DNA of 64,000 nt from Candidatus Woesearchaeota archaeon (lineage in GTDB: Archaea > Nanobdellota > Nanobdellia > Woesearchaeales > GW2011-AR4): the NCBI GenBank assembly GCA_016180235.1, contig JACPBQ010000004.1, positions 371,352 to 435,351 of the forward strand, read 5' to 3'. The translations under genes and the position numbers were made by a program. Every line of letters starts with the position of its first letter. The stretch's first letter is position 1. The notes under the pieces are model-generated. The model searched no databases and was not told the DNA's origin. It was given only the letters and a program-made list of their open reading frames with translations. This document shows, piece by piece, positions 27,983-46,106 of this stretch.

Positions 27983-29815
27983 ATGTGTGGCATTGCGGGA
28001 TTTAACTGGGATGACAAGAAGCTGATAAATTCCATGCTGGACTCCCTGTCCAAAAGAGGGCCGGACGAATCCGGATTTTATATCGACCGCGGCATCAGCA
28101 TGGGAACCAGAAGGCTGAGCGTAATAGACCTCAGCAAGAAAGGAAAACAGCCGATTTCAAACGAGGACGGGACAAAATGGATAGCCTATAATGGCGAAAT
28201 CTATAATTTTAAGGAACTTAGGGATGAGCTGCAAAAAAAGGGCCATAAATTCACAAGCGGCACAGATACAGAGGTCATAATCCACTCTTATGAGGAATAC
28301 GGCAAAAGGTGCGTGGAAAAATTCAACGGGATGTTTGCTTTTGCCGTATGGGACACCAAAAAAAAGGAGCTTTTTATTGCGAGAGACAGGCTCGGAGTCA
28401 AGCCGCTTTTCTATTTCATGGATGGGAAGAAATTTGCCTTTGCCTCAGAGATAAAAGCCATACTTAAATACCATAAAAACCCTTCAATTGACGAAAAATC
28501 AATCTATTTCTACCTGAATTACGGCTACACGCCAAACAACAAGACCGTATTCACGAAAATCTTCAAACTTCCTGCAGGCTGCACTCTCACCTTTAAAAAT
28601 TCCGAATTTAAAATTGAAAAATACTGGAAAATTGATTTTTCCCGGAAGGAGGATGGGAGCGAGGATTATTTCATAAAAAAAATAAGGGAGCACATGGAGG
28701 AATCCGTCAAGATAAGGCTTATTGCGGATGTGCCTGTAGGGGCTTTTTTATCCGGTGGCTTGGACAGCAGCGCAATTGTGGCATATATCTCAAAACATAA
28801 AGACAATCTGAAAACATTTTCTGTGGGCTTTGAGCATGACAAGTTTGACGAGTCCAAATATGCCAAAATTGTCTCTGAAAAATTCGGGACAGAGCATCAT
28901 CAAATGCAGTTTACGCATGAAAATGTCATAAAACTGCTGCCAAAACTCGTTGATTATTATGACGAGCCTTTTGGAGACCCTTCCATGATGCCAACTTACC
29001 TGGTTTCAACAGTTGCAAGGAAGCACGTGACAGTATCATTGTCAGGAGACGGAGGAGATGAGTCATTTTTGGGCTATGACCGCTACAAGCAGTATAGGCT
29101 CATAAATCTCCAAAATCATGCACCTTTTCTCAGCAAAATCGCAAATCCTTTCATAAAATCCCTGTCTAAAATCACAAATCATAATTTAATCAAAAAAACC
29201 GGCAAGTATCTGGAGTTCAACAGGCTAAATGGCTATGAGCAGTACTCCGAGCTAAGGTCGGCTTTCGGCTCAGATGAAAGAAAAAACCTTTTCCTGAAAA
29301 ATCATGATTTTTCGCCTTATTTCAAGGAATTTTTTATTTTTAAAAACTATCTAGACAATATAAGCAATGCCGATATAAATACATACCTTCCCGATGACAT
29401 CCTGACCAAGCTTGACAGGTCAACCATGATGGTGAGCCTGGAAGGGAGGGTGCCGTTCCTGGACTACAAATTCATGGAGTTTTCCGCGAAAATACCGGCG
29501 AGGCTTAAGCTGAAAGGCATGGAAACAAAATATATATTAAAAAAGTCCCTTATCGGCATCCTGCCACGGGAAATAATCTACAGGAAAAAACAAGGGTTCT
29601 CTTTCCCGCTTGACTTATACATCAAGAACGAGCTGAAAGACCTGGTTAAAAACAATTTGTCTGAGAAAAGCAAACTGCATGAATATGTGGACAAGGGCCA
29701 TATAGAAAAACTGCTCAGGCTGCACTACAATAATGAAAAAAATTATGCCAACGGCCTATGGGCAATATTTATCCTGAAATTATGGCTGGATATGTATCTT
29801 AAAAAATACAATTAA
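27983..29815 (+). CDS. asnB: Asparagine synthase (glutamine-hydrolysing)-like amidotransferase, probably acting on glycan uronic acids
   Basis: N-terminal MCGIAG, RRLSVID, YNGEIYN, RDRLGVKPL, LSGGLDSS, SGDGGDE and RKKQGF. Confidence 0.93.
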   Translation: MCGIAGFNWDDKKLINSMLDSLSKRGPDESGFYIDRGISMGTRRLSVIDLSKKGKQPISNEDGTKWIAYNGEIYNFKELRDELQKKGHKFTSGTDTEVIIHSYEEYGKRCVEKFNGMFAFAVWDTKKKELFIARDRLGVKPLFYFMDGKKFAFASEIKAILKYHKNPSIDEKSIYFYLNYGYTPNNKTVFTKIFKLPAGCTLTFKNSEFKIEKYWKIDFSRKEDGSEDYFIKKIREHMEESVKIRLIADVPVGAFLSGGLDSSAIVAYISKHKDNLKTFSVGFEHDKFDESKYAKIVSEKFGTEHHQMQFTHENVIKLLPKLVDYYDEPFGDPSMMPTYLVSTVARKHVTVSLSGDGGDESFLGYDRYKQYRLINLQNHAPFLSKIANPFIKSLSKITNHNLIKKTGKYLEFNRLNGYEQYSELRSAFGSDERKNLFLKNHDFSPYFKEFFIFKNYLDNISNADINTYLPDDILTKLDRSTMMVSLEGRVPFLDYKFMEFSAKIPARLKLKGMETKYILKKSLIGILPREIIYRKKQGFSFPLDLYIKNELKDLVKNNLSEKSKLHEYVDKGHIEKLLRLHYNNEKNYANGLWAIFILKLWLDMYLKKYN

Positions 29816-30747
29816 CCCCTTTCAAAAAATATCTCAAAAGCCCCTTTTTTACCTGTGAGAAAATGAGCATCTTCCAGCATGTCATTTATTTTCATAAATG
29901 ATAAATCATACTCGCTTCTTTTTTTTACCTTCATCTCAGTCACTGTCAGGCACTTTATAACCAGGCTGGTTTCAAAACCATTATCCTTTAAGGTCTTCAA
30001 CAAAAACTTTGTCTGGCTCTTATTCATAATGTGCGGATGAAGCTCAATAAACAGCTTTAGCGGCTTTTTTTTCTTAAGGGTATTTTTCATGCCTTTTAAT
30101 ATCTGGAATTCATAGCCTTCAACATCCATCCTTATGAAATCCGGATATTTTCTATTTTTCAGGAAATTATCCAGTGTGACAACCTTAACATCCAATTTCC
30201 CTATGACATTCCTCTGATGCAGGAACGAATGCCAGTTTGAATACGAAGTTATATTCATCTTGGCAGTCTTATTCTTTTCGCCTATCCCCATCTGGAATAC
30301 CTCTATGTTGGAGTAATCATTCAATCCAATATTCTTTTTTAAAGAAGCAATATTGTCAGGCACAGGCTCAATCGCATAAACCCTGCCTTTTTTTCCAACA
30401 AGCTGCGATTCCATGAGGGCATAGTATCCTATATTTGCCCCAATATCCACAACAGTACCCCTCTCTTTTATTATCTTTTTTATGATTTTAGTGGATTCCG
30501 GCTCCCTTATCCCATCCAGAGCAAGGTCTTTTGATATGCCTCTGTCCTTAAGGTTAAGGTACATTTTGCTTCCCTGCACATTTCTGATTATTATGCTGTT
30601 TTTTGCCTTTATTTTTAAGAGAAGAAATTTAATGTGCCTTATACCCAAAATAAGCCGGAATGCTAGGAATTTAATAACTCTTACAATAAAGTAAAATGCG
30701 CTTTTTCCACTACCCTGCATCTGATTTTTTTTATGTTCTTCAGCCAT
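29812..30747 (-). CDS. FkbM-family methyltransferase
   Basis: VVDIGANIGYYAL, VYAIEP, TLD and FIRMDVEGYE. Confidence 0.92.
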   Translation of the reverse strand: MAEEHKKNQMQGSGKSAFYFIVRVIKFLAFRLILGIRHIKFLLLKIKAKNSIIIRNVQGSKMYLNLKDRGISKDLALDGIREPESTKIIKKIIKERGTVVDIGANIGYYALMESQLVGKKGRVYAIEPVPDNIASLKKNIGLNDYSNIEVFQMGIGEKNKTAKMNITSYSNWHSFLHQRNVIGKLDVKVVTLDNFLKNRKYPDFIRMDVEGYEFQILKGMKNTLKKKKPLKLFIELHPHIMNKSQTKFLLKTLKDNGFETSLVIKCLTVTEMKVKKRSEYDLSFMKINDMLEDAHFLTGKKGAFEIFFERG

Positions 30748-30892: not shown

Positions 30893-30945
30893 CCAAACAA
30901 AAAGGTATATAAATTAACGACTGTTCTTTTTATTTGAAGGCAAAA

Positions 30946-32307
30946 ATGAATGTCATTCTTATTGTAGTAGATGCATTGCGCTTTGACCATCTGGGCATAG
31001 GCGGCTATGGCAGGGATACAAGCCCGAATATAGACAAGCTTGCCAAAAAAGGCACAATATTCCCAAATGCCTACTGCCCCTTGCCAAGGACAGACCCTTC
31101 AATGATGTCTATTTTTACCGGCATGTACCCCCATAACCACGGGATAAGGCTGGTAGCCAACAACAAGGCTGATGCTTCTTTGGCAACTTTAGCTGAAACA
31201 CTCAAAAACCATGCATATAAAACGGCATTCATAGGCGGATTTGGAGTGCATGACCACGCTTTAGAGAAAGGATTTGATGATTTTAACCTGATGGGATGGA
31301 AAATAAGATCTAAAATCAAGAGAACCATTTTCAAGGCATATAACCCATCGAATTATTACGGAGAGGCAAGGCAATACACCGATATAGCGGTAAACTGGAT
31401 CAGGAAGAATTCCAAAAACAAGTTCTTTTTATGCGTCCACTACGAGGATCTGCATTGGCCTTATGAGGCCCCAAAGCCTTTTGAGCATATGTTTGATCCC
31501 GAATACGGGGGAAACCATGATTTTAACACAGTAAATCATGGAAAATTCTCAAGAGGAGAGCTTATTTTCGGCAAGGCAAAACTGCCGAAGGAAGAAATAG
31601 AGCACGCGATTGCACATTATGACGGCGGCATAAGATACATAGATGCTCAAATTCACAGGCTGCTGGGCTGCGTTGAAAGCCATGGGCTTGACGATGATAC
31701 GCTAATAATACTGACTGCCGACCATGGCGAAAATTTCGGCGAGCATAATTTTTATTTCCAGCACGGAGCAAGCCTTTACGAGCCCAGCCTGAAAGTTCCT
31801 ATGATATTAAACCATTCCAAATCAATCCCCCGAGGAAAAATAATAAGCCAAAGGGTCCGGAATTTTGACATAATGCCCACTGTACTTGATATTCTTGGAA
31901 TACCGATCCTTGATAAGATTGACGGAGCAAGCCTTTTGCCCTTGATAAAAGGCGAGGGCAAAAAAACCCTGAATTTCATTTTTGCCGAAAGCATTGAAGA
32001 GCATTTTAAAGGGAATGAAAGGGTATTTTTTCCAGGCATTAAGGGCAAATGGAGGGCCATGATAGAAGGGGACTGGAAAATCATTTACATACCGCATCCG
32101 AAAAATGATATCTTTGAATTATACAACCTTAGAGAGGACCCTCAGGAAAAAAATGACCTTATAGGCAAAGAAAAAGAAATCGCTTCAAAAATGAAAGAAA
32201 AGATCCTGGATTTTTTAAAGCCACAAAGTAATGAAGGAGATGCAAATATCACAAACCTTGCTGAAAAATCAAAAAAACTGCTGAGAAAGATCGGCTATTT
32301 GGAATAG
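30946..32307 (+). CDS. Sulfatase-like hydrolase/transferase (alkaline phosphatase superfamily), Thr at the nucleophile position
   Basis: VILIVVDALRFD, PRTDPSMMSIFTG in place of CxPxR, HWPY, YDGGIRYID, TADHGE and ELYNL.EDP.E; no signal peptide or TM. Confidence 0.88.
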   Translation: MNVILIVVDALRFDHLGIGGYGRDTSPNIDKLAKKGTIFPNAYCPLPRTDPSMMSIFTGMYPHNHGIRLVANNKADASLATLAETLKNHAYKTAFIGGFGVHDHALEKGFDDFNLMGWKIRSKIKRTIFKAYNPSNYYGEARQYTDIAVNWIRKNSKNKFFLCVHYEDLHWPYEAPKPFEHMFDPEYGGNHDFNTVNHGKFSRGELIFGKAKLPKEEIEHAIAHYDGGIRYIDAQIHRLLGCVESHGLDDDTLIILTADHGENFGEHNFYFQHGASLYEPSLKVPMILNHSKSIPRGKIISQRVRNFDIMPTVLDILGIPILDKIDGASLLPLIKGEGKKTLNFIFAESIEEHFKGNERVFFPGIKGKWRAMIEGDWKIIYIPHPKNDIFELYNLREDPQEKNDLIGKEKEIASKMKEKILDFLKPQSNEGDANITNLAEKSKKLLRKIGYLE

Positions 32308-32310
32308 AAA

Positions 32311-33432
32311 ATGATTAACCTGTTCAGGAAAAAAAAGCCAAACGTAATTATGATAATGATAGACGGCCTTAGGCATGATGCCCTTAGCATGGTTCCTTAT
32401 TACAACGAGCTGAAAAAGGAAGCAACGTTCTTTTCCAGGCTGATTACTTATGCTCCATATACTATAGGCTCATTGCATGCACTATTCTCAGGCATGAACG
32501 GCAACCAGAATGGCGTTAACGGCTATTACAGGAGCTACAGCTTCGACAAGAAAAACTGCTTTACGCTGGCGCAGTACATGAAAGAACAAGGATACTACAC
32601 AGAATGCGACCTTATCTACGAGAGCATAATTCCCACACAGGGGTTTGAAAAGGTGAGAACGCATGACGAGTTCAAAGACGACCTAACCAAAAAGCACTCA
32701 GAGATCCTGAACCAAATAAAAAACAAAAAGCCATTCTTTCTTTTTCTGGATTACAGCAAAATACACACAAACCTCGTGAGCAATGTAATCAAAAAATATT
32801 CCGATTTTGACAGGGAATACTTCAATAATAAGGATAATAATTTTAAGAATTACCTGGAGTGGGCAAAGGCAAGCGCAGACTACCTCAAATCTATTATTGA
32901 AAAAATAAAAGATGCCAAATTATGGGATGATTCGATAATTCTTGTATTCACAGACCATGGCGGCAGCACCGGAGACAAAGTCGGGGAGAGGGCATACGGA
33001 GTCTACCTTTATGAATACACATTGAGGTGCTTCTTATACATCATAGGGAAGGATTTTCCCAAAAACCTGCAGATAGATCATATTGCCCAAAGCATTGACA
33101 TCCTGCCAACAATAATGGATATTTTCAGCGTGAAGGAGAAAGACGGCTATAAAAAAATTCAGGGAAAATCATTCCTGCCCTTCATTAAGGGAAAGCATGA
33201 TGGCAGGATTGCCTATTCCGAGACCGGAGGCTTGGGAGGGCCAACGCCATCTCCGGAAAAACACAATCTAAAATGCGTCCGGAATGACAGATGGAAGCTG
33301 ATTTATAACGAAAGCAGCAAAAAAAAAGAACTTTATGACCTGGAAGCGGATCCTGAAGAGAAAGACAATCTGGCCGGCAAGGGACTGGCAGAAGAAAAGG
33401 AGCTCTGGGAAGAGCTGCAAAAATACAATTAG
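32311..33432 (+). CDS. Second sulfatase-like hydrolase/transferase, Thr at the nucleophile position
   Basis: PNVIMIMIDGLRHD, APYTIGSLHALFSG, FTDHG, SIDILPT and ELYDL..DPEE. Confidence 0.82.
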   Translation: MINLFRKKKPNVIMIMIDGLRHDALSMVPYYNELKKEATFFSRLITYAPYTIGSLHALFSGMNGNQNGVNGYYRSYSFDKKNCFTLAQYMKEQGYYTECDLIYESIIPTQGFEKVRTHDEFKDDLTKKHSEILNQIKNKKPFFLFLDYSKIHTNLVSNVIKKYSDFDREYFNNKDNNFKNYLEWAKASADYLKSIIEKIKDAKLWDDSIILVFTDHGGSTGDKVGERAYGVYLYEYTLRCFLYIIGKDFPKNLQIDHIAQSIDILPTIMDIFSVKEKDGYKKIQGKSFLPFIKGKHDGRIAYSETGGLGGPTPSPEKHNLKCVRNDRWKLIYNESSKKKELYDLEADPEEKDNLAGKGLAEEKELWEELQKYN

Positions 33433-33482
33433 GCTTTTTTCTTAAATACCGGAAATGCAGCACATAGCCTAATTCCGAAAGA

Positions 33483-33509
33483 TTTAAAAAGCCACTAGTA
33501 ACACTAGTA
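33483..33509 (+). promoter_or_regulatory. TATA box plus tandem CACTAGTA boxes (candidate operator) of the phosphonate operon
   Basis: tttaaaaa starts 30 nt before ATG 33513; cactagta at 33493-33500 and 33502-33509, each with the palindromic ACTAGT core. Confidence 0.55.
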
Positions 33510-33512
33510 GAT

Positions 33513-34061
33513 ATGAAGAAACCAGTGTGGGCAAACAAATCCAATGGGCAGCTATGCGTGACTATACCCAAAGGCTCAGGGATAAAAGAAGGGGACATAG
33601 TCAATGTGGAAAAGGAGAAAATCAACACTATTGTCTACAGCTCTGTTACAGGCGACATGTTCCACTACGGGCACCTCAGGCTGCTCCAGAAAGCGAATGA
33701 GCTTGGAGATTTTCATATATGCGGGGTTGTTACCGATGAAGCGATAAGATCCTACAAAGAAGAGCCTATAGCAGGCCTAAAAGAAAGAAAAACAATCATC
33801 TCGGACCTCAGATGCGTGGACATGGTCATGGTGCAGGGCAATTTAGACCCGACAGAAAACCTGCAAAAAATACATGCGCAGTTCCCTTATGCAAAAATAA
33901 TCCTTGTATACGGCTCAAACTGGAAAAAGGTGCCTGGGGCAGATTATATGAAGAAAATTAACGGCAAAATAATGCAGCCGGAATTTTACGGGAAATTATC
34001 GACAGAGAACATCATCAGGAAAATCTTCAGAATCTACAGGAATGGAGCTGGCATCAAATGA
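33513..34061 (+). CDS. Cytidylyltransferase (HxGH family) with an N-terminal AbrB/MazE-like domain
   Basis: Residues 1-35 contain GQLCVTIPK..GIKEGD.V.V; then GDMFHYGH, GVVTD and VYGSNW. Confidence 0.8.
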   Translation: MKKPVWANKSNGQLCVTIPKGSGIKEGDIVNVEKEKINTIVYSSVTGDMFHYGHLRLLQKANELGDFHICGVVTDEAIRSYKEEPIAGLKERKTIISDLRCVDMVMVQGNLDPTENLQKIHAQFPYAKIILVYGSNWKKVPGADYMKKINGKIMQPEFYGKLSTENIIRKIFRIYRNGAGIK

Positions 34062-35359
34062 AAAAAGTTTATGTGGGAATGAGCACTGACGTAGTGCATC
34101 ACGGCCATATAAAAATAATAGAGGAAGCGAGAAAGCTTGGCGAAGTGACAGTAGGATTGCTGACAGACAATGCCATTGCGAATTATAAAAGGATTCCGCT
34201 GCTGTCATATGAACAGAGGAAAAAAATAATAGAGAACATAAAAGGAGTAAAAGAAGTGATCCCTCAGGAAACGCTCGATTATGGGCCAAATCTTATAATG
34301 CTAAAACCGGACTATGTAGTCCATGGCACTGACTGGCGCGAAGGCGTGCAGAAAAAGGCGAGGGAAGGAGTTATTGAAACGCTTAAGGGATGGGGAGGCT
34401 TGCTTGTAGAGCCCGAGTACACCAAAGATATTTCTGCAACCCAATTGGCCAATGCAATCAATAAGATAGGGACTACGCCTGAAATCAGGCTGAAAAAACT
34501 GAGGAGACTTTTAGAGCTTAAGCCGATAGTCAGGATTATGGAAGTGCATAACGGCCTTACAGGAAGGATTGTAGAAACGACAAGAATTGCTGAGGAAGGA
34601 AATGTAAAGGAATTCGACGGCATGTGGGAAAGCAGCCTTACCGATTCAACATCAAAAGGAAAGCCGGACATAGAGCTCGTTGATTTTACTTCCAGGCTGC
34701 AGACAATAGACCAGATTTTTGAGGTCACGACCAAGCCCATGATTGTTGACGGCGACACCGGGGGCTTAGTGGAGCATTTTGTCTATACTGTAAAGACGCT
34801 TGAAAGGCTCGGGGTATCTGCAGTCATAATAGAGGACAAGACAGGGCTGAAGAAAAACTCGCTTTTCGGCACCGAAGTAAAACAGGAGCAGGAAGCCATA
34901 GAAAATTTCTCGCATAAAATATCCGAGGGGAAAAAAGCCCAGGTTACGGAAGATTTCATGATAATAGCAAGGATAGAGAGCCTGATACTGAACAAAGGCG
35001 TTGAAGATGCCCTTAAAAGGGCAAGAGCCTATATTGAAGCCGGAGCAGACGGCATAATGATACACAGCAAGGAAAAAGACCCAAAAGAAGTCCTTGATTT
35101 CTGCAGGGAATACTCTAAATTTGAAGACAAAGTGCCCCTGGTGGCTGTTCCCAGCTCATATAATTCCATTACAGAGGACGAATTAGCCAATGCAGGCGTA
35201 AAAATAGTGATATACGCGAATCATCTTTTGAGGAGCGCGTATCCTGCCATGATAAAGGCAGCAGAATCCATATTGAGGAACGGAAGGTGCAAGGAAGCAT
35301 CGGAAGAACACTGCATGCCCATAAATGAAATCCTGAACCTGATTCCGGGAGGCAAATAA
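34058..35359 (+). CDS. aepX: Phosphoenolpyruvate mutase with an N-terminal cytidylyltransferase domain
   Basis: HHGH NTase domain; EVHNGLTG, WESSLTDS, DGDTGG and the PepM signature EDKTGLKKNS. Confidence 0.96.
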   Translation: MKKVYVGMSTDVVHHGHIKIIEEARKLGEVTVGLLTDNAIANYKRIPLLSYEQRKKIIENIKGVKEVIPQETLDYGPNLIMLKPDYVVHGTDWREGVQKKAREGVIETLKGWGGLLVEPEYTKDISATQLANAINKIGTTPEIRLKKLRRLLELKPIVRIMEVHNGLTGRIVETTRIAEEGNVKEFDGMWESSLTDSTSKGKPDIELVDFTSRLQTIDQIFEVTTKPMIVDGDTGGLVEHFVYTVKTLERLGVSAVIIEDKTGLKKNSLFGTEVKQEQEAIENFSHKISEGKKAQVTEDFMIIARIESLILNKGVEDALKRARAYIEAGADGIMIHSKEKDPKEVLDFCREYSKFEDKVPLVAVPSSYNSITEDELANAGVKIVIYANHLLRSAYPAMIKAAESILRNGRCKEASEEHCMPINEILNLIPGGK

Positions 35360-36494: not shown

Positions 36495-37634
36495 ATGCCG
36501 CAGCAAGAATATTTAGGCTATAATTCGATAGAAAACTTAAGAAATATTTTATCTAAGCACATCCCTAAATCCATTTTTTTAGTTACCCATAAAGATTCTT
36601 ATGAGAGATGCGGGGCAAAATCAATAATAGACAGTTTTCTGAATAGCAGCAATCTAGCCCATTTTAATGATTTTGAGATAAACCCAAAAATAGAAGACAT
36701 TGAAAGAGGAATCAACATTTTTAAAAAGAACAATTGTGATTTTGTAATTGCCGTTGGGGGAGGCAGCGCCATGGACACTGCTAAATCAATAAATCTTTTT
36801 GCCAATAATCCCGGCAATCCAATGGACTATATCCAAAAAAAGCAAATTATAGAAAATAAAGGCAAAACTTTAGCCGCTATACCGACAACTTCCGGTTCCG
36901 GGAGCGAAGCAACGAAGTTTGCAGTCATTTACACTGAAAAAATAAAGCAGTCTTTGGAGCACGAATTCATGCTTCCTGATTACGCAATTGTCGATCCGCA
37001 GTTTACAATGAGCCTGCCAAAGTATGTCACTGCATGCAGCGGCATGGATGCCTTATCGCAAGGTATAGAATCCTATTGGTGTGTCAATTCAAATGAAGAA
37101 TCAAAAAAATACGCAAAAGAGGCAATCAAGCTCGTAATTAAAAATCTTTCTGCTGCTGTAAACAATCCCTCTAAAGAGTCAAGGGAGGCAATGTCAAAAG
37201 CAGCTCATTTGGCAGGAAAAGCCATCAATATATCAAAAACAACAGCCTGCCACGCAGTCTCTTACCCAATCACCTCTTATTTCAATCTTCCCCATGGGCA
37301 TGCAGTGGCATTGACCTTGCCATCAATGCTGATATATAACTCTAAAGTCGATGAAAACAGCTTATTGGACAAAAGAGGCATAATTTATGTCAAAAAAACC
37401 ATTAATGAAATCATAAAATTCATTGATGCTAAAAGTGCTGATGATGCGGGCAAAAAATTGCAAAATTTGATGATTGGCATAGGATTAAGCACTCAACTGG
37501 GCCAATTAGGAATAAAAACCGAAGACGATGTCAAATTGATAATCCAGCGGGGCTTTAACCCGCAAAGGGTCAACAATAACCCAAGAAGATTAACTGAAGA
37601 GGCTTTGAAAGAAATTCTGGAAAAAATAAGATGA
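36495..37634 (+). CDS. Phosphonoacetaldehyde reductase (iron-containing alcohol dehydrogenase)
   Basis: AVGGGSAMD.AK, PTTSGSGSEAT, DALSQ.IES and HAVSY...HGH; directly after aepY. Confidence 0.88.
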   Translation: MPQQEYLGYNSIENLRNILSKHIPKSIFLVTHKDSYERCGAKSIIDSFLNSSNLAHFNDFEINPKIEDIERGINIFKKNNCDFVIAVGGGSAMDTAKSINLFANNPGNPMDYIQKKQIIENKGKTLAAIPTTSGSGSEATKFAVIYTEKIKQSLEHEFMLPDYAIVDPQFTMSLPKYVTACSGMDALSQGIESYWCVNSNEESKKYAKEAIKLVIKNLSAAVNNPSKESREAMSKAAHLAGKAINISKTTACHAVSYPITSYFNLPHGHAVALTLPSMLIYNSKVDENSLLDKRGIIYVKKTINEIIKFIDAKSADDAGKKLQNLMIGIGLSTQLGQLGIKTEDDVKLIIQRGFNPQRVNNNPRRLTEEALKEILEKIR

Positions 37635-38344
37635 AAGCAATGCTGCTAAATTCAGGAGTAGGTAACAGACTTAGGCCATTTACAGATAGCAATCCAAAAT
37701 GCCTAATAAAAATCAATCATGACACCATCCTTGAGCACGAAATAAAAAACCTTTTGCATTACGGAATCAGGGATATAATAATAACAACCGGATTTTTCGA
37801 GGAAAAAATCAAGGATTTAATAAAAAACAAATTTCCTGAAGCAAACGTAAAATATGCAAAGAGCGACAAGCCGGACACAACAAATGCCATTTACTCCATG
37901 TGGCTGGCAAGGTACTTGGCGGATGACGACATATTGCTGATGCATGGCGACATGATTTTTGATAAAGAGCTGCTTGGAAGGCTCCTAAAATCAAAGCATC
38001 CCAGCTGCGCTTTAGTCAACAACAAAATAGAATTGCCGGAAAAAGACTTTAAGGCCAGGATAAACGGAGGCACTGTCATGGAAATAGGAGTGGATGTTTT
38101 CGGCAAAGATGCATTTTTCCTTGCTCCGGTTTACAGGATATCAAAAAAAGATTTTAGGCTATGGATGGAAGAAATAAGCAAATTCATAAAGAGGAAAGAT
38201 GTCACGGTATATGCGGAAAACGCCTTTAACAATATTTCCTCAAAACTCAAGCTTTATCCTGTTTATTACCAGGATGAATTCTGCATGGAAATAGACAATT
38301 TTGATGATTTACAGAAGGCAAGGAAGTTTTTTAGGCGAAAATAG
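37631..38344 (+). CDS. LicC/PntC-like NTP transferase (phosphonate cytidylyltransferase candidate)
   Basis: NSGVGNRL.P....PKCL, TNAIYS, MHGDMIFD and MEIDNFDDL. Confidence 0.85.
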   Translation: MKAMLLNSGVGNRLRPFTDSNPKCLIKINHDTILEHEIKNLLHYGIRDIIITTGFFEEKIKDLIKNKFPEANVKYAKSDKPDTTNAIYSMWLARYLADDDILLMHGDMIFDKELLGRLLKSKHPSCALVNNKIELPEKDFKARINGGTVMEIGVDVFGKDAFFLAPVYRISKKDFRLWMEEISKFIKRKDVTVYAENAFNNISSKLKLYPVYYQDEFCMEIDNFDDLQKARKFFRRK

Positions 38345-38369: not shown

Positions 38370-39860
38370 TTATTTTACTATCCTCCTATACAAGTCCTTT
38401 ACTTCCCTGATATCTATAATCCTGAACAAAAACAGCATAGCTGCATAGATTATTCCAGATATTACCAGGATAATAGCTGTTTCTGCCCAAATATTAAGGG
38501 ATAATACTCTCTTTAAGGCCCATATTAATAAGGTAAAGATTGCGCCAGCTAAAACCGTTCTTGCCCATATCCCTATGGGGAAAGACAGCTTTATGTATTT
38601 TCTCACATCCTTAAAGGTCAGGGCCATGATTATGAAATAGCTGGATGCTGTCGAAATTGCAGCCCCGATTATGCCGATAACCGGAATTAAAATCAGGTTT
38701 AACACGAAATTTAAGGCCGCGCCGAAATAAATAATTTTGCTGTATATCTGCGGCTTTCCGATGCCAGCAAAGAAGTTAGAGTTTATAACACTCAAAACAG
38801 CGAATATCATGCCTACAGCTAAAATTTTCATAGAAGTGCTGGCTGATAGATAGTCTTTTCCGTACAAAATCTGTATCAGCAAGTCGGTAAATGACAGCAT
38901 AACCAAAGCCAATGGAATAATCATTATGATGGAATACTTATAAAGTGATTCCATGCCTGCTATCAGTATCTTCTTGTTGTTTTTTGCCCACAGCTCGCTT
39001 GTCAGCGGAAGCAGGACAGCTGCAATAGGGAGTATAAAATTCCTCAATGCCCTGGCAGTCGGCAGCGCAACGCTGTACAAGGCTACAGCCTTTAAATCGG
39101 TAAAATAGGTTAACATTACAATATCCGTAGAGCCTAAGATCACAACACCAACACTTATAGATATAACATGTATCCCATACTTGAACAGTCTTTTTATCAG
39201 TTTTTTATTAAAGGAAAATTTTGATTTAAGAAAATCCGGAAAAACCTTCTTGACCAGTATCACGCTGAAAAGCACAGTTATGATGGCCGAGGCAATGACA
39301 TATGCATAAGCAGGGCTTAAAACACCATAATTTAGCTTTAGCCCAATTATGATTATAGATATTAATAACAATCCCCTTATTACGTCTATGCCGGAGAAGT
39401 AAACCGGCTTTTTGAACCCCTGAAAGGCAAATTTCAAGGTCTGCACAAAACTGTCAATGAAAAATGCTACTGCAAGGACTTTAAGAAGAATACCAGCTTC
39501 ATCATATTTAAAATAGTTTGCTGCAAGAAAATCGGAAAGAATGTAAAGAACTATTATGACCACAGAATTTGTCAATAGCTGTATAAATGCAGAATACATT
39601 ATGCAATTCTTTATCATGCTGCTTTTCTTCTTGTGCACAAATTCCGGGATGAATTTGGCCAGTGCGCGGTCAAAGCCCAGGCTCTTGAAGATGCCAAAAA
39701 TCCCCACAAAAGCAAACACGGCATAAAAAAGCCCAAACTCTTCCACTGAAAGGTTTCTTGCCAATAGCACCCTGACTACATAACCCAAAATAGCTGCTAT
39801 AATGGAAATCAGCAGAATTGTTGTTGCGCCCCTGACAGCGAATTTCGTATAGCTTTCCAT
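38370..39860 (-). CDS. Second polysaccharide flippase (alternative start at 39863)
   Basis: LARNLSVEEFG, TDIVML.....KAVALYSVA and LNLILIPVIGIIGAAIST; about 14 TM segments. Confidence 0.92.
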   Translation of the reverse strand: MESYTKFAVRGATTILLISIIAAILGYVVRVLLARNLSVEEFGLFYAVFAFVGIFGIFKSLGFDRALAKFIPEFVHKKKSSMIKNCIMYSAFIQLLTNSVVIIVLYILSDFLAANYFKYDEAGILLKVLAVAFFIDSFVQTLKFAFQGFKKPVYFSGIDVIRGLLLISIIIIGLKLNYGVLSPAYAYVIASAIITVLFSVILVKKVFPDFLKSKFSFNKKLIKRLFKYGIHVISISVGVVILGSTDIVMLTYFTDLKAVALYSVALPTARALRNFILPIAAVLLPLTSELWAKNNKKILIAGMESLYKYSIIMIIPLALVMLSFTDLLIQILYGKDYLSASTSMKILAVGMIFAVLSVINSNFFAGIGKPQIYSKIIYFGAALNFVLNLILIPVIGIIGAAISTASSYFIIMALTFKDVRKYIKLSFPIGIWARTVLAGAIFTLLIWALKRVLSLNIWAETAIILVISGIIYAAMLFLFRIIDIREVKDLYRRIVK

Positions 39861-39970
39861 CATTAACCGGCTTTTATTGCTATTTAAATTATTTATGAAT
39901 TATCAGCACTGGAAACACATTGCCCAAACAAAACCAAAAATTTATAAATCAAGTAGGATACTTCCACGAT

Positions 39971-44615: not shown

Positions 44616-46106
44616 TTAAGGGATATAATATAATGCCGCGCTTTTTTGGTCTTTGCCGGCTTCTTTAATTATCACCCATTTAGCCGGGGGATTGAAAACT
44701 TCTTCCTGGAAGGAAAATTCCATGAAAGGATGGGCTTCCTTGACTGCCTGGATAATGTTTTTGTCCACCAGGACATACGCATCTCTTATCTTGCTTAAAT
44801 CATGCATTGGCTTTCCTGCATCAGTTTGCACATCAAATTCTTTAATCTCAATATCTCCTTTGTATCCGGACAAATACCCAAGGACAGCTTTGGACCTCTT
44901 ATCTGTATATAACGGCTTGTCCAAATCGCTGACAGCAGGATAAAGGCTGGCAAGGTTTTGGGTTACCTGCTTTGTATCCTGCTCCAGGTAAATGAAGCCA
45001 ATTGAAGCTGCAAAAAGCATCAAAATAATTGACGGCATAAGGGCTTTTCTTATCACTTCCTCGTTGCTCAGCAAAAAATAAGACAACAGCATTATTCCCG
45101 GAAAAATTACAGGAAACAGGTATCTGGGGACTCCTGCGAAGGGCAAATAACTGGAAAGGCTCGTGCTGCCAAAGCTTATGTAAAGCAAAAGTACGCTAAA
45201 CCAAATTATTAATGGGTAGGTTTCTTTTTTTCTTAACAATATCGAGTAAACAAGTGCTATGAATATAAAAGGAAAAAACAGGCCAAATTGGCTGCTGGTG
45301 AACAATAAATACGGATAATGCACAAGAGAAGATGGAAATGAGCCCCTGCCAAAGAAACCCGAGCTTTCCACAACATCTTCGTAATTCTGACTCAACGAAT
45401 GGTACCTGTAAAACGGGTCACCTGTATTAAGCATAAATAATATAGACTCAAAACTAAAAACCACAATAAAGCCGGCTAATATATACAAATAATTCAGCTT
45501 TATTTTCCTATAAAATATGGCATAAGCGCCAAAGAAAAGCACTATTAAAACTGCAGTCTCCCTAAATGTGTATGCTATGCCGATAAAAAGGCCAGAAAGG
45601 ATGTAGCTCAGATTCATTTTTAATTTTTTCTGACACCTCTCACCAAGCAAAAAGAGGAATACGCCAAGGCCGATGAAAAATGCTGAGGGCAAGTCGCTCA
45701 CGAGCCTAGTGGCAAAAATCACGTCCAAGGGAAAAAACGAGAGGAGAAAAGCAGACAACAAACCGACCTTTTCACCAAACAGAAATCTTCCAAAATAAAA
45801 TATCAATATCATGCCTGCAATTGAGAACAGTAGTACAGGAAATACCGAGGAAAAATCATTAACTCCGAACAAGCCGTACATGAAGCTGACTGAATATAAA
45901 AAGAACAGCCTCATTCCCTGGTGGGTGCCGGGAAATGCATAATCATCTTGCGACAGGTCATATGCATACTTCGTGTATCCCAGGTCATCAGATGCTCCTA
46001 TGCCGCTGAAAAAATACAGCCTAAGCGCTATTCCAAAAAGTATTATTAATGCAAGCCATATTAAGGATTTCCCTCTGATTTTCCTTCCCGGTTCTGCAGC
46101 TGCCAT
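44616..46106 (-). CDS. ArnT/PMT-family (GT39/83-like) GT-C membrane glycosyltransferase
   Basis: First loop ASDDLGY, LFGVNDFS, LLSAFLLSFFPLDV and RYLFP; many TM segments. Confidence 0.8.
   Translation of the reverse strand: MAAAEPGRKIRGKSLIWLALIILFGIALRLYFFSGIGASDDLGYTKYAYDLSQDDYAFPGTHQGMRLFFLYSVSFMYGLFGVNDFSSVFPVLLFSIAGMILIFYFGRFLFGEKVGLLSAFLLSFFPLDVIFATRLVSDLPSAFFIGLGVFLFLLGERCQKKLKMNLSYILSGLFIGIAYTFRETAVLIVLFFGAYAIFYRKIKLNYLYILAGFIVVFSFESILFMLNTGDPFYRYHSLSQNYEDVVESSGFFGRGSFPSSLVHYPYLLFTSSQFGLFFPFIFIALVYSILLRKKETYPLIIWFSVLLLYISFGSTSLSSYLPFAGVPRYLFPVIFPGIMLLSYFLLSNEEVIRKALMPSIILMLFAASIGFIYLEQDTKQVTQNLASLYPAVSDLDKPLYTDKRSKAVLGYLSGYKGDIEIKEFDVQTDAGKPMHDLSKIRDAYVLVDKNIIQAVKEAHPFMEFSFQEEVFNPPAKWVIIKEAGKDQKSAALYYIP

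What the first reader, a model, noticed from the sequence alone, without database searches (positions are those of the whole stretch)
30946..33432. Two cytoplasmic Thr-nucleophile sulfatase-fold proteins as candidate phosphonate-to-glycan transferases
Seen: both proteins have the metal-binding D and DHG motifs, but Thr replaces the formylglycine Cys/Ser and the CxPxR Arg is missing (TDPSM and TIGSL). Neither has a signal peptide or TM segment. They sit 80 bp upstream of the HEP operon, and no LicD or CDP-alcohol transferase is in the window. Known: Thr-nucleophile members of this superfamily (LtaS, EptA, NPP, PhnA) do phosphoryl/phosphonyl chemistry, not sulfate hydrolysis. Inference: they move HEP from CMP-HEP to the lipid-linked glycan before flipping, filling the missing transfer step. 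Caveat: a T-run and a separate TATA suggest they are transcribed separately from the HEP operon.
Basis: partly seen in the sequence, partly recalled or inferred. Interest (0 to 1): 0.7.

Follow-up and report, generated by a model that had tools for sequence, protein, structure and literature searches.

The report
Threonine-type sulfatase-fold pair beside phosphonate genes
Two neighbouring genes of a tiny (DPANN) archaeon look like sulfatases but have threonine instead of the essential cysteine, and they and their relatives sit again and again next to genes that make, import or CTP-activate phosphonates, so they are good but untested candidates for the unknown enzymes that fasten phosphonates to surface sugars.

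Summary
S1 (30946-32307, 453 aa) and S2 (32311-33432, 373 aa) are leaderless sulfatase-fold proteins. Both keep the Asp and Asp-His metal ligands. Both have Thr where sulfatases have the formylglycine Cys/Ser, and neither has the motif's Arg. This is a family trait: 115 S1 and 116 S2 homologues have only Thr or Ser there.

They lie 80 bp upstream of a Fom1-like CMP-hydroxyethylphosphonate cassette and beside a Wzx flippase. No LicD gene is in the genome, and no CDP-alcohol transferase gene is in the window.

The link to phosphonates is real but not exclusive:
- Five of 13 distinct close S1 loci carry PepM within 10 kb. Three more carry a PhnD phosphonate importer with LicC-like nucleotidyltransferases instead.
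- In 401 genomes of the phylum, 5 of 10 S2 genomes have PepM against 19 of 391 others (p = 1e-4).
- Five S1 loci, including the sister genome of the same genus, have no phosphonate gene.
- Eight loci also carry a CDP-alcohol-transferase-like gene.

Best reading (about 0.45): cytoplasmic Thr/Ser-nucleophile transferases that move nucleotide-activated phosphono or phospho head groups onto lipid-linked glycans. Transfer chemistry itself is untested. The literature already notes "arylsulfatase" genes in pepM/mpnS neighbourhoods.

The parts
30946..32307 (+). S1: leaderless sulfatase-fold protein, 453 aa, with Thr49 at the formylglycine position (TDPSM). Metal ligands are D9 and D259-H260. Family-invariant H170, D226 and H273.
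   Evidence: AlphaFold model pLDDT 86.8. Foldseek top hits are SpAS2 and phosphonate monoester hydrolases.
32311..33432 (+). S2: leaderless sulfatase-fold protein, 373 aa, with Thr51 at the nucleophile position (TIGSL). Metal ligands are D18 and D215-H216. Family-specific invariant loop TGGLGGPxPSPxxHN (305-319).
   Evidence: Model pLDDT 86.8. Foldseek top hits are carbohydrate and choline sulfatases.
30901..30920 (+). A/T-rich TATA-like box (ggtatataaatta) 25-45 nt upstream of the S1 start.
   Evidence: Read directly from the sequence. Inference only.
33433..33512 (+). 80-bp spacer between S2 and the cassette. It has a T7 run directly after the S2 stop and a TTTAAAAA box about 25 nt before the next ATG. 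This may be a separate transcription unit.
   Evidence: Read directly from the sequence. Not tested with RNA data.
33513..34061 (+). Stand-alone cytidylyltransferase-like protein (PF01467).
   Evidence: Conserved next to S1/S2 in L001, L103, L108 and L113.
34058..35359 (+). Fom1-like fusion of a cytidylyltransferase domain and PEP mutase.
   Evidence: TIGR02320 409 bits against a cut-off of 320, plus PF01467. Fom1 precedent for CMP-HEP in PMC6697681.
35375..36493 (+). Phosphonopyruvate decarboxylase.
   Evidence: TIGR03297 493 bits against a cut-off of 312.
36495..37634 (+). Fe-dependent alcohol dehydrogenase (phosphonoacetaldehyde reductase type, giving 2-HEP).
   Evidence: PF00465 and PF25137. 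TIGR03405 196 bits, below its cut-off.
37631..38344 (+). LicC/PntC-like nucleotidyltransferase (PF00483, PF12804). This is the gene type most constantly found with S1/S2.
   Evidence: Neighbourhoods.
38370..39863 (-). Wzx/MOP-type flippase, convergent on the module.
   Evidence: PF01943. The same arrangement occurs in L001, L102, L105, L107-L110 and L123.
29812..30747 (-). FkbM-family methyltransferase, divergent from S1.
   Evidence: PF05050. The same neighbour occurs in L106/L023.
44685..46007 (-). PMT_2/ArnT-like GT-C glycosyltransferase, a recurrent neighbour of the module.
   Evidence: tblastn 43% identity to the PMT_2 gene of L108.

Best explanation
S1 and S2 are soluble, cytoplasmic enzymes of the alkaline-phosphatase superfamily, built on the two-domain sulfatase scaffold. 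In them formylglycine has been replaced by a Thr (or Ser) nucleophile.

Proposed mechanism:
1. The neighbouring cytidylyltransferases make a nucleotide-activated head group, here CMP-2-hydroxyethylphosphonate. In relatives it would be CMP-methylphosphonate, an imported phosphonate, or a CDP-alcohol.
2. The metal-activated Thr attacks the phosphonyl phosphorus. CMP leaves and a covalent Thr-O-phosphonyl enzyme forms.
3. The group is passed to a sugar hydroxyl of the lipid-linked glycan on the cytoplasmic face, giving a phosphonate monoester.
4. The adjacent Wzx flippase then exports the glycan.

The two paralogues would serve different acceptor positions or different steps.

Shown: the fold, the nucleophile swap, the retained metal ligands, the cytoplasmic location, and the conserved neighbourhood with phosphonate, cytidylyltransferase and flippase genes.

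Inferred: the donor, the acceptor, and transfer rather than hydrolysis.
For: 1. Active site: Thr/Ser only at the nucleophile position, no Arg at +4, and invariant D...DH ligands in 115 S1 and 116 S2 homologues. The sulfate-binding Lys positions align to non-conserved residues or to Gly (alignment).
2. Location: no leader or membrane segment.
3. S1 neighbourhoods. Of 13 distinct close S1 loci, PepM is within 10 kb in the window, L001, L103/L104, L108 and L113. In L001 S1 lies between the Fe-ADH and CT/PepM genes. A PhnD (TIGR03431, above cut-off) ABC importer with two LicC-like nucleotidyltransferases is present in L001, L102, L106 and L107. L103 and L001 also encode a methylphosphonate synthase homologue (PDB 6b9s, E = 2e-59).
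4. S2 neighbourhoods. S2 alone sits next to Fe-ADH/PepM in G381, next to PhnD-ABC-NT-Wzx in G175, about 6 kb from Ppd in G261, and with CT, NT and HIT genes in G230.
5. Genome level, 401 genomes of the phylum: PepM occurs in 5 of 10 S2 genomes against 19 of 391 others (Fisher p = 1e-4).
6. Among 24 PepM clusters, a sulfatase-fold neighbour (5) and a CDP-alcohol transferase neighbour (11) never coincide (p = 0.03). LicD is present in only one.
7. A LicC-like nucleotidyltransferase and a Wzx flippase are the most constant partners, even where phosphonate genes are absent. Hydrolysing the nucleotidyltransferase product, or an imported phosphonate after activation, would be futile.
8. Foldseek places S1 next to phosphonate monoester hydrolases. 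These act on exactly the bond type that a glycan-O-phosphonate would have.
9. Fom1-type CT-PepM fusions make CMP-HEP (PMC6697681).
10. The literature already reads 'arylsulfatase A' genes in pepM/mpnS neighbourhoods as hinting at phosphonate ester synthesis (PMC9381506).
Against: - There is no biochemical evidence for any member, and sequence cannot separate a transferase from a hydrolase.
- Eight related loci also have a CDP-alcohol-phosphotransferase-like gene next to S1. That family is the textbook candidate for transfer from CMP- or CDP-activated donors.
- Five of 13 S1 loci and 4 of 10 S2 genomes have neither PepM nor PhnD.
- Nineteen of the 24 PepM genomes in the phylum have no sulfatase-fold gene near PepM.
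- Every characterised Thr-type PF00884 transferase (EptA, LtaS, OpgB) is membrane-anchored, extracytoplasmic and uses lipid donors. Scores of S1/S2 against those models are far below their cut-offs.
- A T-run and a possible promoter separate S1/S2 from the HEP cassette.
Confidence: 0.45

Rival explanations
1. S1 and S2 are hydrolases, not transferases. They would be phosphodiesterases, nucleotide pyrophosphatases or phosphonate-monoester hydrolases. Possible jobs: remove a CMP handle after tailoring (a FomD-like step of 'transient cytidylylation'), proofread wrong nucleotide conjugates, or trim head groups from the glycan.
For: The closest structures are hydrolases: sulfatases and phosphonate monoester hydrolases. 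S1 passes Pfam Phosphodiest, and its T-x-P-x-x-x-S-I-x-T-G loop resembles the NPP nucleophile loop (my reading, with the NPP motif from memory). In fosfomycin biosynthesis CMP-HEP is a transient intermediate (PMC6697681). An HIT-family gene accompanies the module in L001, L102 and L127.
Against: The setting is a glycan island with Wzx, GT and PMT_2 genes, not a small-molecule cluster. Where a PhnD importer and nucleotidyltransferases replace PepM, import, activation and then hydrolysis would be futile. Two conserved paralogues kept over wide archaeal diversity is more than a clean-up role would need.
Confidence: 0.2
2. The CMP-phosphonate transferase is a CDP-alcohol phosphotransferase. It is encoded next to S1 in most relatives and elsewhere in this genome. 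S1/S2 would act after it. They might move the head group from a phosphono or phospho lipid to the glycan, as EptA and LtaS do, or remove a phosphate left on the product, as in the AIP/DIPP-type two-step pathways.
For: A divergent 289-294-aa CDP-OH_P_transf-like gene lies beside S1 in L102, L103, L105, L106, L107, L108, L111 and L112. Eleven of 24 PepM clusters in the phylum have PF01066 within about 7 kb. G000 itself has PF01066 genes at C9:8566-11126.
Against: In the window, L001, L110, L113 and G381 no such gene is near. In the phylum sample the sulfatase-fold and PF01066 neighbours of PepM are mutually exclusive. S1/S2 have no membrane domain of the kind that binds the lipid donor in EptA and LtaS.
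Confidence: 0.2
3. S1/S2 have a glycan-related role unconnected to phosphonates, for example handling sulfate or phosphate esters on sugars. On this view they neighbour PepM only because both reside in hypervariable surface-glycan islands.
For: Five of 13 S1 loci lack phosphonate genes. L109 has CysD/CysN-like genes and L108 an APS-kinase-like gene nearby. About 80 relatives at roughly 30% identity have no PepM within 10 kb.
Against: The sulfatase catalytic set (FGly motif, Arg, Lys) is absent. In L001 S1 lies inside the cassette, between the Fe-ADH and CT/PepM genes, and S2 adjoins cassette or importer genes in G381 and G175. Genome-level enrichment has p = 1e-4.
Confidence: 0.1

Closest known systems
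'Sulfatase / arylsulfatase A' genes in pepM and mpnS neighbourhoods. Examples are the Nitrosopumilus maritimus methylphosphonate cluster (Metcalf 2012, as cited in PMC9381506) and the Selenomonas 'multiple sulfatases' cluster family (PMC8942020).
   Same: Sulfatase-family genes sit beside PepM/Ppd/alcohol dehydrogenase and nucleotidyltransferases in surface-glycan settings. L103 and L001, which carry S1/S2 orthologues, even have an MpnS homologue.
   Different: As far as the papers I could read go, those reports note only the co-occurrence. They do not describe the Thr/Ser nucleophile, the cytoplasmic location, the S1/S2 pairing or the PhnD-importer variant. I could not check whether the N. 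maritimus genes are orthologues, because Metcalf 2012 is not held.
Phosphonate monoester hydrolases and dimeric arylsulfatases of the alkaline-phosphatase superfamily (RlPMH 2vqr, BcPMH 2w8s, AtPMH 4uph, SpAS2 4upl).
   Same: They are the best structural matches of S1 (TM about 0.76). They are soluble and intracellular, and they act on phosphonate monoesters, the bond type expected in a phosphonoglycan.
   Different: They use formylglycine from a C-x-P-x-R motif and are hydrolases. S1/S2 have Thr and no Arg. Identity is only about 22%.
EptA/MCR-1, LtaS and OpgB: Thr-nucleophile PF00884 head-group transferases.
   Same: Same Pfam family, a Thr nucleophile with Asp/Asp-His metal ligands, and a covalent-intermediate transfer of a phospho-alcohol onto surface glycans or lipids. 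This is the mechanism proposed here.
   Different: They are membrane-anchored and extracytoplasmic, and they use PE or PG lipids as donors. S1/S2 are leaderless and soluble. They score 20-37 bits against models with cut-offs of 500-1250. By fold they sit with true sulfatases.
LicD and CDP-alcohol phosphotransferases, the known transferases for CDP/CMP-activated head groups.
   Same: They would occupy the same pathway position, after a LicC/PntC-type cytidylyltransferase.
   Different: Their folds are unrelated. LicD is absent from this genome. CDP-alcohol transferases co-occur with S1/S2 in many loci.
Fom1/Fom2/FomC of fosfomycin biosynthesis.
   Same: The downstream cassette (CT-PepM fusion, Ppd, Fe-ADH) matches the route to CMP-HEP.
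   Different: There are no Fom3, Fom4 or FomD genes here. The setting is a glycan island, not an antibiotic cluster.

Membership tests
Type I (formylglycine) sulfatases | C/S-x-P/A-x-R motif that is matured to formylglycine | tested here: not met
   S1 has TDPSM and S2 has TIGSL. Across 115 S1 and 116 S2 homologues there is no Cys, and the +4 position in S1 is I/V/M/F/L, never Arg.
Type I (formylglycine) sulfatases | Two-domain sulfatase fold (N-terminal alpha/beta domain plus SGSH_C-type subdomain) | tested here: met
   PF00884 and PF16347 pass their cut-offs. Foldseek TM is 0.70-0.78 to many sulfatases.
Type I (formylglycine) sulfatases | Sulfate-binding Lys residues (the GKxH motif and the Lys after DHG) and the paired Asp-Asp at strand 1 | tested here: not met
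   In the HMM alignment to 7oz8 the GKMH segment aligns to a non-conserved stretch, and the Lys after DHG aligns to G274, next to invariant H273. The second Asp is A/S/T.
Thr-nucleophile PF00884 transferases (EptA/MCR, LtaS, OpgB) | Thr nucleophile with Asp/Glu and Asp-His metal ligands | tested here: met
   S1: T49, D9, D259, H260. S2: T51, D18, D215, H216. The ligands are invariant and the nucleophile is T or S.
Thr-nucleophile PF00884 transferases (EptA/MCR, LtaS, OpgB) | N-terminal multi-pass membrane domain and an extracytoplasmic catalytic domain | tested here: not met
   No hydrophobic segment is present, and the proteins start 8-17 residues before the first metal Asp.
Thr-nucleophile PF00884 transferases (EptA/MCR, LtaS, OpgB) | Sequence membership (NCBIfam equivalog models) | tested here: not met
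   The best scores are 20-37 bits against cut-offs of 500-1250.
Thr-nucleophile PF00884 transferases (EptA/MCR, LtaS, OpgB) | Transfer of a head group through a covalent Thr intermediate | not testable with these tools
   This needs enzyme assays and intact-protein mass spectrometry.
NPP / type I phosphodiesterase (PF01663) | Pfam model above its gathering score | tested here: inconclusive
   S1 scores 66 bits against a cut-off of 23, but this is a weaker overlapping hit beneath Sulfatase (189 bits). S2 scores 17.9 bits, below the cut-off.
NPP / type I phosphodiesterase (PF01663) | Bimetallo Zn site (a second site of Asp-His-His) | tested here: inconclusive
   S1 has family-invariant H170, H220, D226 and H273 that are not sulfatase residues. 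Their geometry was not examined.
Phosphonate monoester hydrolases (S1_0-type) | Formylglycine nucleophile and hydrolysis of phosphonate monoesters | tested here: not met
   They are the top structural neighbours, but S1 has no FGly motif. Activity was not tested.
Phosphonate-tailoring gene neighbourhood (pepM/phnD with cytidylyltransferase) | Recurrent adjacency to phosphonate synthesis or import genes in unrelated lineages | tested here: met
   Eight of 13 S1 loci and 6 of 10 S2 genomes show it. S2 against PepM gives Fisher p = 1e-4.

The most novel reading that the evidence does not exclude
The leaderless S1/S2 pair, and a third 516-584-aa family found beside PepM in other DPANN genomes, would define a new functional class in the alkaline-phosphatase superfamily. 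These would be cytoplasmic transferases on a sulfatase scaffold that take head groups directly from nucleotide donors (CMP-HEP, CMP-methylphosphonate, CMP-AEP, CDP-alcohols). They would use a covalent Thr/Ser-phosphonyl intermediate and esterify the group to lipid-linked glycans before flipping. That would make them the missing attachment enzymes of archaeal and marine phosphonoglycans, including the methylphosphonate esters thought to feed aerobic ocean methane.
Probability: 0.35. Interest if true: 0.8.

Novelty: new variant of a known kind. Interest (0 to 1): 0.55.

Why it matters
How phosphonates are attached to cell-surface glycans is still unknown. Activation by cytidylyltransferases (PntC, the Fom1 CyTase domain) has been shown. 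The transfer step has only been guessed at, with LicD-like or CDP-alcohol transferases as candidates.

Methylphosphonate esters made by marine archaea are the proposed source of methane in oxygenated ocean water. Orthologues of S1/S2 sit in clusters that encode MpnS. A soluble candidate pair that can be expressed gives a direct experiment: CMP-HEP, enzyme, mass spectrometry.

If the pair proves to be transferases, it would also show that the sulfatase scaffold has been turned into a nucleotide-donor transferase. Hundreds of 'sulfatase' annotations in archaeal and bacterial glycan islands would then need re-labelling.

Tried and rejected
1. The genome-contig scan with the single S1 protein reached only one close relative (L001).
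2. The metagenome scan with the S1 alignment returned mostly relatives at about 30% identity. None had PepM within 10 kb. The association is therefore confined to the close S1/S2 subfamilies, not to the broad Thr-type sulfatase-like group.
3. Metcalf 2012 and Yu 2013 could not be read. Their content is cited only through PMC9381506 and PMC8942020.
4. I looked for a hidden CDP-alcohol transferase or LicD gene in the window and genome. There is none in the window.
5. I considered Ser-type formylglycine maturation for the Ser-bearing homologues. I rejected it because the Arg of S-x-P-x-R is never present.
6. I considered secretion. I rejected it because most family members start right at strand 1.
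7. The fold search did not place either protein near LtaS, EptA or NPP, so membership of those families is not claimed.
8. Sigma-70 promoter scans were not run, since the organism is archaeal. No RNA data were sought for this uncultured genome.
Full report
**1. What is there**

The window is part of contig C9 (371352-435351) of a roughly 1-Mb DPANN-type archaeal genome. Two co-directional genes, 3 bp apart, encode S1 (30946-32307, 453 aa) and S2 (32311-33432, 373 aa).

- Both pass Pfam Sulfatase (PF00884; 189 and 79 bits) and SGSH_C. S1 also passes Phosphodiest.
- Against NCBIfam they hit arylsulfatase, choline-sulfatase and PehA models far below the cut-offs. LtaS and EptA models score only 20-37 bits.

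**2. The active-site observation holds**

Aligned to sulfatases, the C-x-P-S-R-x-x-x-x-T-G signature reads T49-D-P-S-M-M-S-I-F-T-G in S1 and T51-I-G-S-L-H-A-L-F-S-G in S2.

- The strand-1 Asp (D9 in S1, D18 in S2) and the Asp-His pair (D259-H260, D215-H216) are kept.
- In 115 full-length S1 homologues the nucleophile position is T in 69, S in 46 and never C. The +4 position is never Arg. D9, H170, D226, D259, H260 and H273 are invariant.
- In 116 S2 homologues the position is T in 88 and S in 28, and D18, D215 and H216 are invariant. A family-specific loop, TGGLGGPxPSPxxHN, is also nearly invariant.
- The sulfate-binding Lys positions are not kept: the GKxH segment aligns to a variable stretch, and the Lys after DHG aligns to Gly next to invariant H273.

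These proteins therefore cannot be formylglycine sulfatases.

Neither protein has a hydrophobic segment. In 99 of 115 S1 homologues the protein begins exactly eight residues before the first metal ligand. The family is leaderless, hence cytoplasmic.

**3. Fold**

AlphaFold models are confident (mean pLDDT 86.8 for both).

- S1's best PDB neighbours are the soluble dimeric arylsulfatases and phosphonate monoester hydrolases (4upl, 4uph, 2vqr, 2w8s) and carbohydrate sulfatases, with TM about 0.76.
- S2's best neighbours are carrageenan and choline sulfatases.
- LtaS, EptA and NPP are not among the top matches.

By descent, then, both are offshoots of the true sulfatase/PMH branch that have swapped the nucleophile. 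They are not members of the known Thr-type transferase families.

**4. Surroundings in the window**

The genes that follow the 80-bp spacer after S2 are:
- a stand-alone cytidylyltransferase;
- a cytidylyltransferase-PEP mutase fusion (TIGR02320, 409 bits);
- phosphonopyruvate decarboxylase (TIGR03297, 493 bits);
- an Fe-alcohol dehydrogenase;
- a LicC-like nucleotidyltransferase;
- a convergent Wzx flippase.

This is the Fom1/Fom2/FomC logic, which yields CMP-2-hydroxyethylphosphonate (Rice et al. 2019, PMC6697681).

The spacer has a T7 run right after the S2 stop and an A/T box about 25 nt before the next ATG. Separate transcription is possible but untested.

The genome has no LicD. Its PF01066 genes lie about 360 kb away.

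**5. Is the link to phosphonates real?**

I collected 13 distinct loci with S1 homologues of 43-66% identity.

- PepM/Ppd/Fe-ADH lie within 10 kb in five of them:
  - the window;
  - L001, a Methanosarcinales MAG, where S1 sits between the Fe-ADH and CT/PepM genes;
  - L103/L104;
  - L108, a marine contig with the same gene order as the window;
  - L113 (G222).
- L103 and L001 also encode a methylphosphonate synthase homologue (6b9s, E = 2e-59). These are methylphosphonate-type clusters.
- L102, L106/L023 and L107, and L001 as well, have a bona fide PhnD next to S1/S2 (TIGR03431, 282 bits against a cut-off of 261). It comes with its ABC partners and two LicC-like nucleotidyltransferases. This looks like a salvage version that imports a phosphonate instead of making it.
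- Five loci have neither: L105, L109, L110, G256 (same genus as the window) and G360.

S2 gives the cleaner signal in an even sample of 401 genomes of the phylum.

- Ten genomes have S2 and 24 have PepM. Five have both, against 19 of 391 genomes without S2 (odds ratio about 20, p = 1e-4).
- S2 without S1 lies directly after Fe-ADH in G381.
- It lies directly before CT-PhnD-ABC-NT-Wzx in G175.
- It lies about 6 kb from Ppd in G261.
- It lies with CT, NT and HIT genes in G230.

Relatives of S1 at about 30% identity show no such link. The association belongs to these subfamilies.

**6. The other candidate transferases**

Among the 24 PepM clusters of the phylum:
- 11 have a CDP-alcohol phosphotransferase within about 7 kb;
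- 5 have a sulfatase-fold gene within about 6 kb;
- 1 has LicD;
- the first two sets do not overlap (p = 0.03).

This fits alternative solutions to one step.

Three of the five sulfatase-fold neighbours belong to yet another leaderless family. It is 516-584 aa long, has S/T at the nucleophile position, and carries an unknown C-terminal domain.

Against a simple substitution, eight S1 loci carry a divergent 289-294-aa CDP-alcohol-transferase-like gene right beside S1. S1/S2 may therefore act alongside or after such an enzyme in many organisms.

**7. Mechanism**

The partners found most constantly with S1/S2 are a LicC/PntC-type nucleotidyltransferase and a Wzx flippase. The variable partner is the source of the head group: PepM pathway, MpnS, PhnD importer, or other genes.

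This pattern, the cytoplasmic location and the Thr/metal site best fit a ping-pong transferase:
1. Thr attacks the phosphonyl (or phosphoryl) phosphorus of the nucleotide-activated head group.
2. CMP leaves.
3. The group goes to a sugar hydroxyl of the lipid-linked glycan before flipping.

Hydrolysis of the same donors would be futile, especially in the importer loci. Even so, a hydrolytic or editing role, or a role downstream of the CDP-alcohol transferase, cannot be excluded. I put the transferase reading at about 0.45.

**8. Relation to what is known**

The co-occurrence itself is in the literature.

- Lockwood et al. 2022 (PMC9381506) list 'arylsulfatase A' among the neighbours of pepM and mpnS. 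They take it as a hint of phosphonate ester synthesis, in line with the earlier analysis of the N. maritimus cluster.
- Li and Horsman 2022 (PMC8942020) mention 'multiple sulfatases' in a Selenomonas cluster family.

In the papers I could search I found none of the following:
- the nucleophile swap;
- the leaderless nature of the proteins;
- the S1/S2 pairing;
- the importer variant;
- the exclusivity with CDP-alcohol transferases;
- any enzymology.

Earlier notes of this scan reached the same reading on other genomes. They are leads, not independent evidence.

**9. Verdict**

This is a new, untested variant within a known superfamily, sitting in an already noticed genomic association. It is a concrete candidate for a long-missing step. 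Interest is moderate to high.

Noticed in passing
L103:14377-15612 and L001:6533-7708: Both are clusters that carry S1/S2 orthologues and also encode a methylphosphonate synthase homologue (PDB 6b9s, E = 2e-59 for L103). L001 comes from a Methanosarcinales MAG. They are therefore methylphosphonate-type clusters outside Thaumarchaeota.
   Followed up: partly
L102:13968-18775, L107:13478-19001, L106:3736-7721, L123:10749-14384: A PhnD (above the TIGR03431 cut-off) with its ABC ATPase and permease and two LicC-like nucleotidyltransferases replaces the PepM pathway next to S1/S2. This looks like a salvage route that imports a phosphonate and CTP-activates it for glycan decoration. L001 has both the importer and PepM.
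   Followed up: partly
L122:9221-10771, L121:11838-13544, L120:5549-7303: A third family of leaderless sulfatase-fold proteins (516-584 aa). Members have S/T at the nucleophile position ('STxMS'), a P/SDHG motif, and an unknown C-terminal domain of about 250 aa. They lie directly beside CT-PepM genes in three other DPANN genomes.
   Followed up: partly
L120:7355-12108 (G381 contig 11): Three tandem cytidylyltransferase-'PepM-like' fusion genes. Their PEP-mutase halves score below the TIGR02320 cut-off (140-167 bits). A sulfatase-fold gene follows them.
   Followed up: no
G000 C9:136964-139504 and C9:143268-144923 (outside the window): Two further Thr-type sulfatase-fold proteins of the same genome, each with an N-terminal membrane anchor. 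One is 847 aa with a large extra N-terminal domain and the other is 552 aa. They are probably extracytoplasmic.
   Followed up: partly
protein P0225: A 612-aa protein that fuses a SAM-methyltransferase domain to an S2 homologue. Separate methyltransferases also recur inside the module (L001, L102, L107, L111).
   Followed up: no
L103:12509-13372, L102:12484-13287, L107:12609-13409, L001:73-858: A conserved protein of 266-287 aa with no family match directly follows S2 in several loci. An HIT-family gene often comes next. It has no homologue in the window's genome.
   Followed up: partly
G000 C9:8566-11126 (outside the window): Two divergent open frames of 346 and 367 aa, each holding two CDP-alcohol phosphotransferase domains in tandem. 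The same arrangement occurs in G222 and G360.
   Followed up: no
L109:4997-9973: The most distant S1 homologue examined (43% identity) sits with CysD/CysN-like sulfate-activation genes and two Phosphodiest-family genes instead of phosphonate genes.
   Followed up: no
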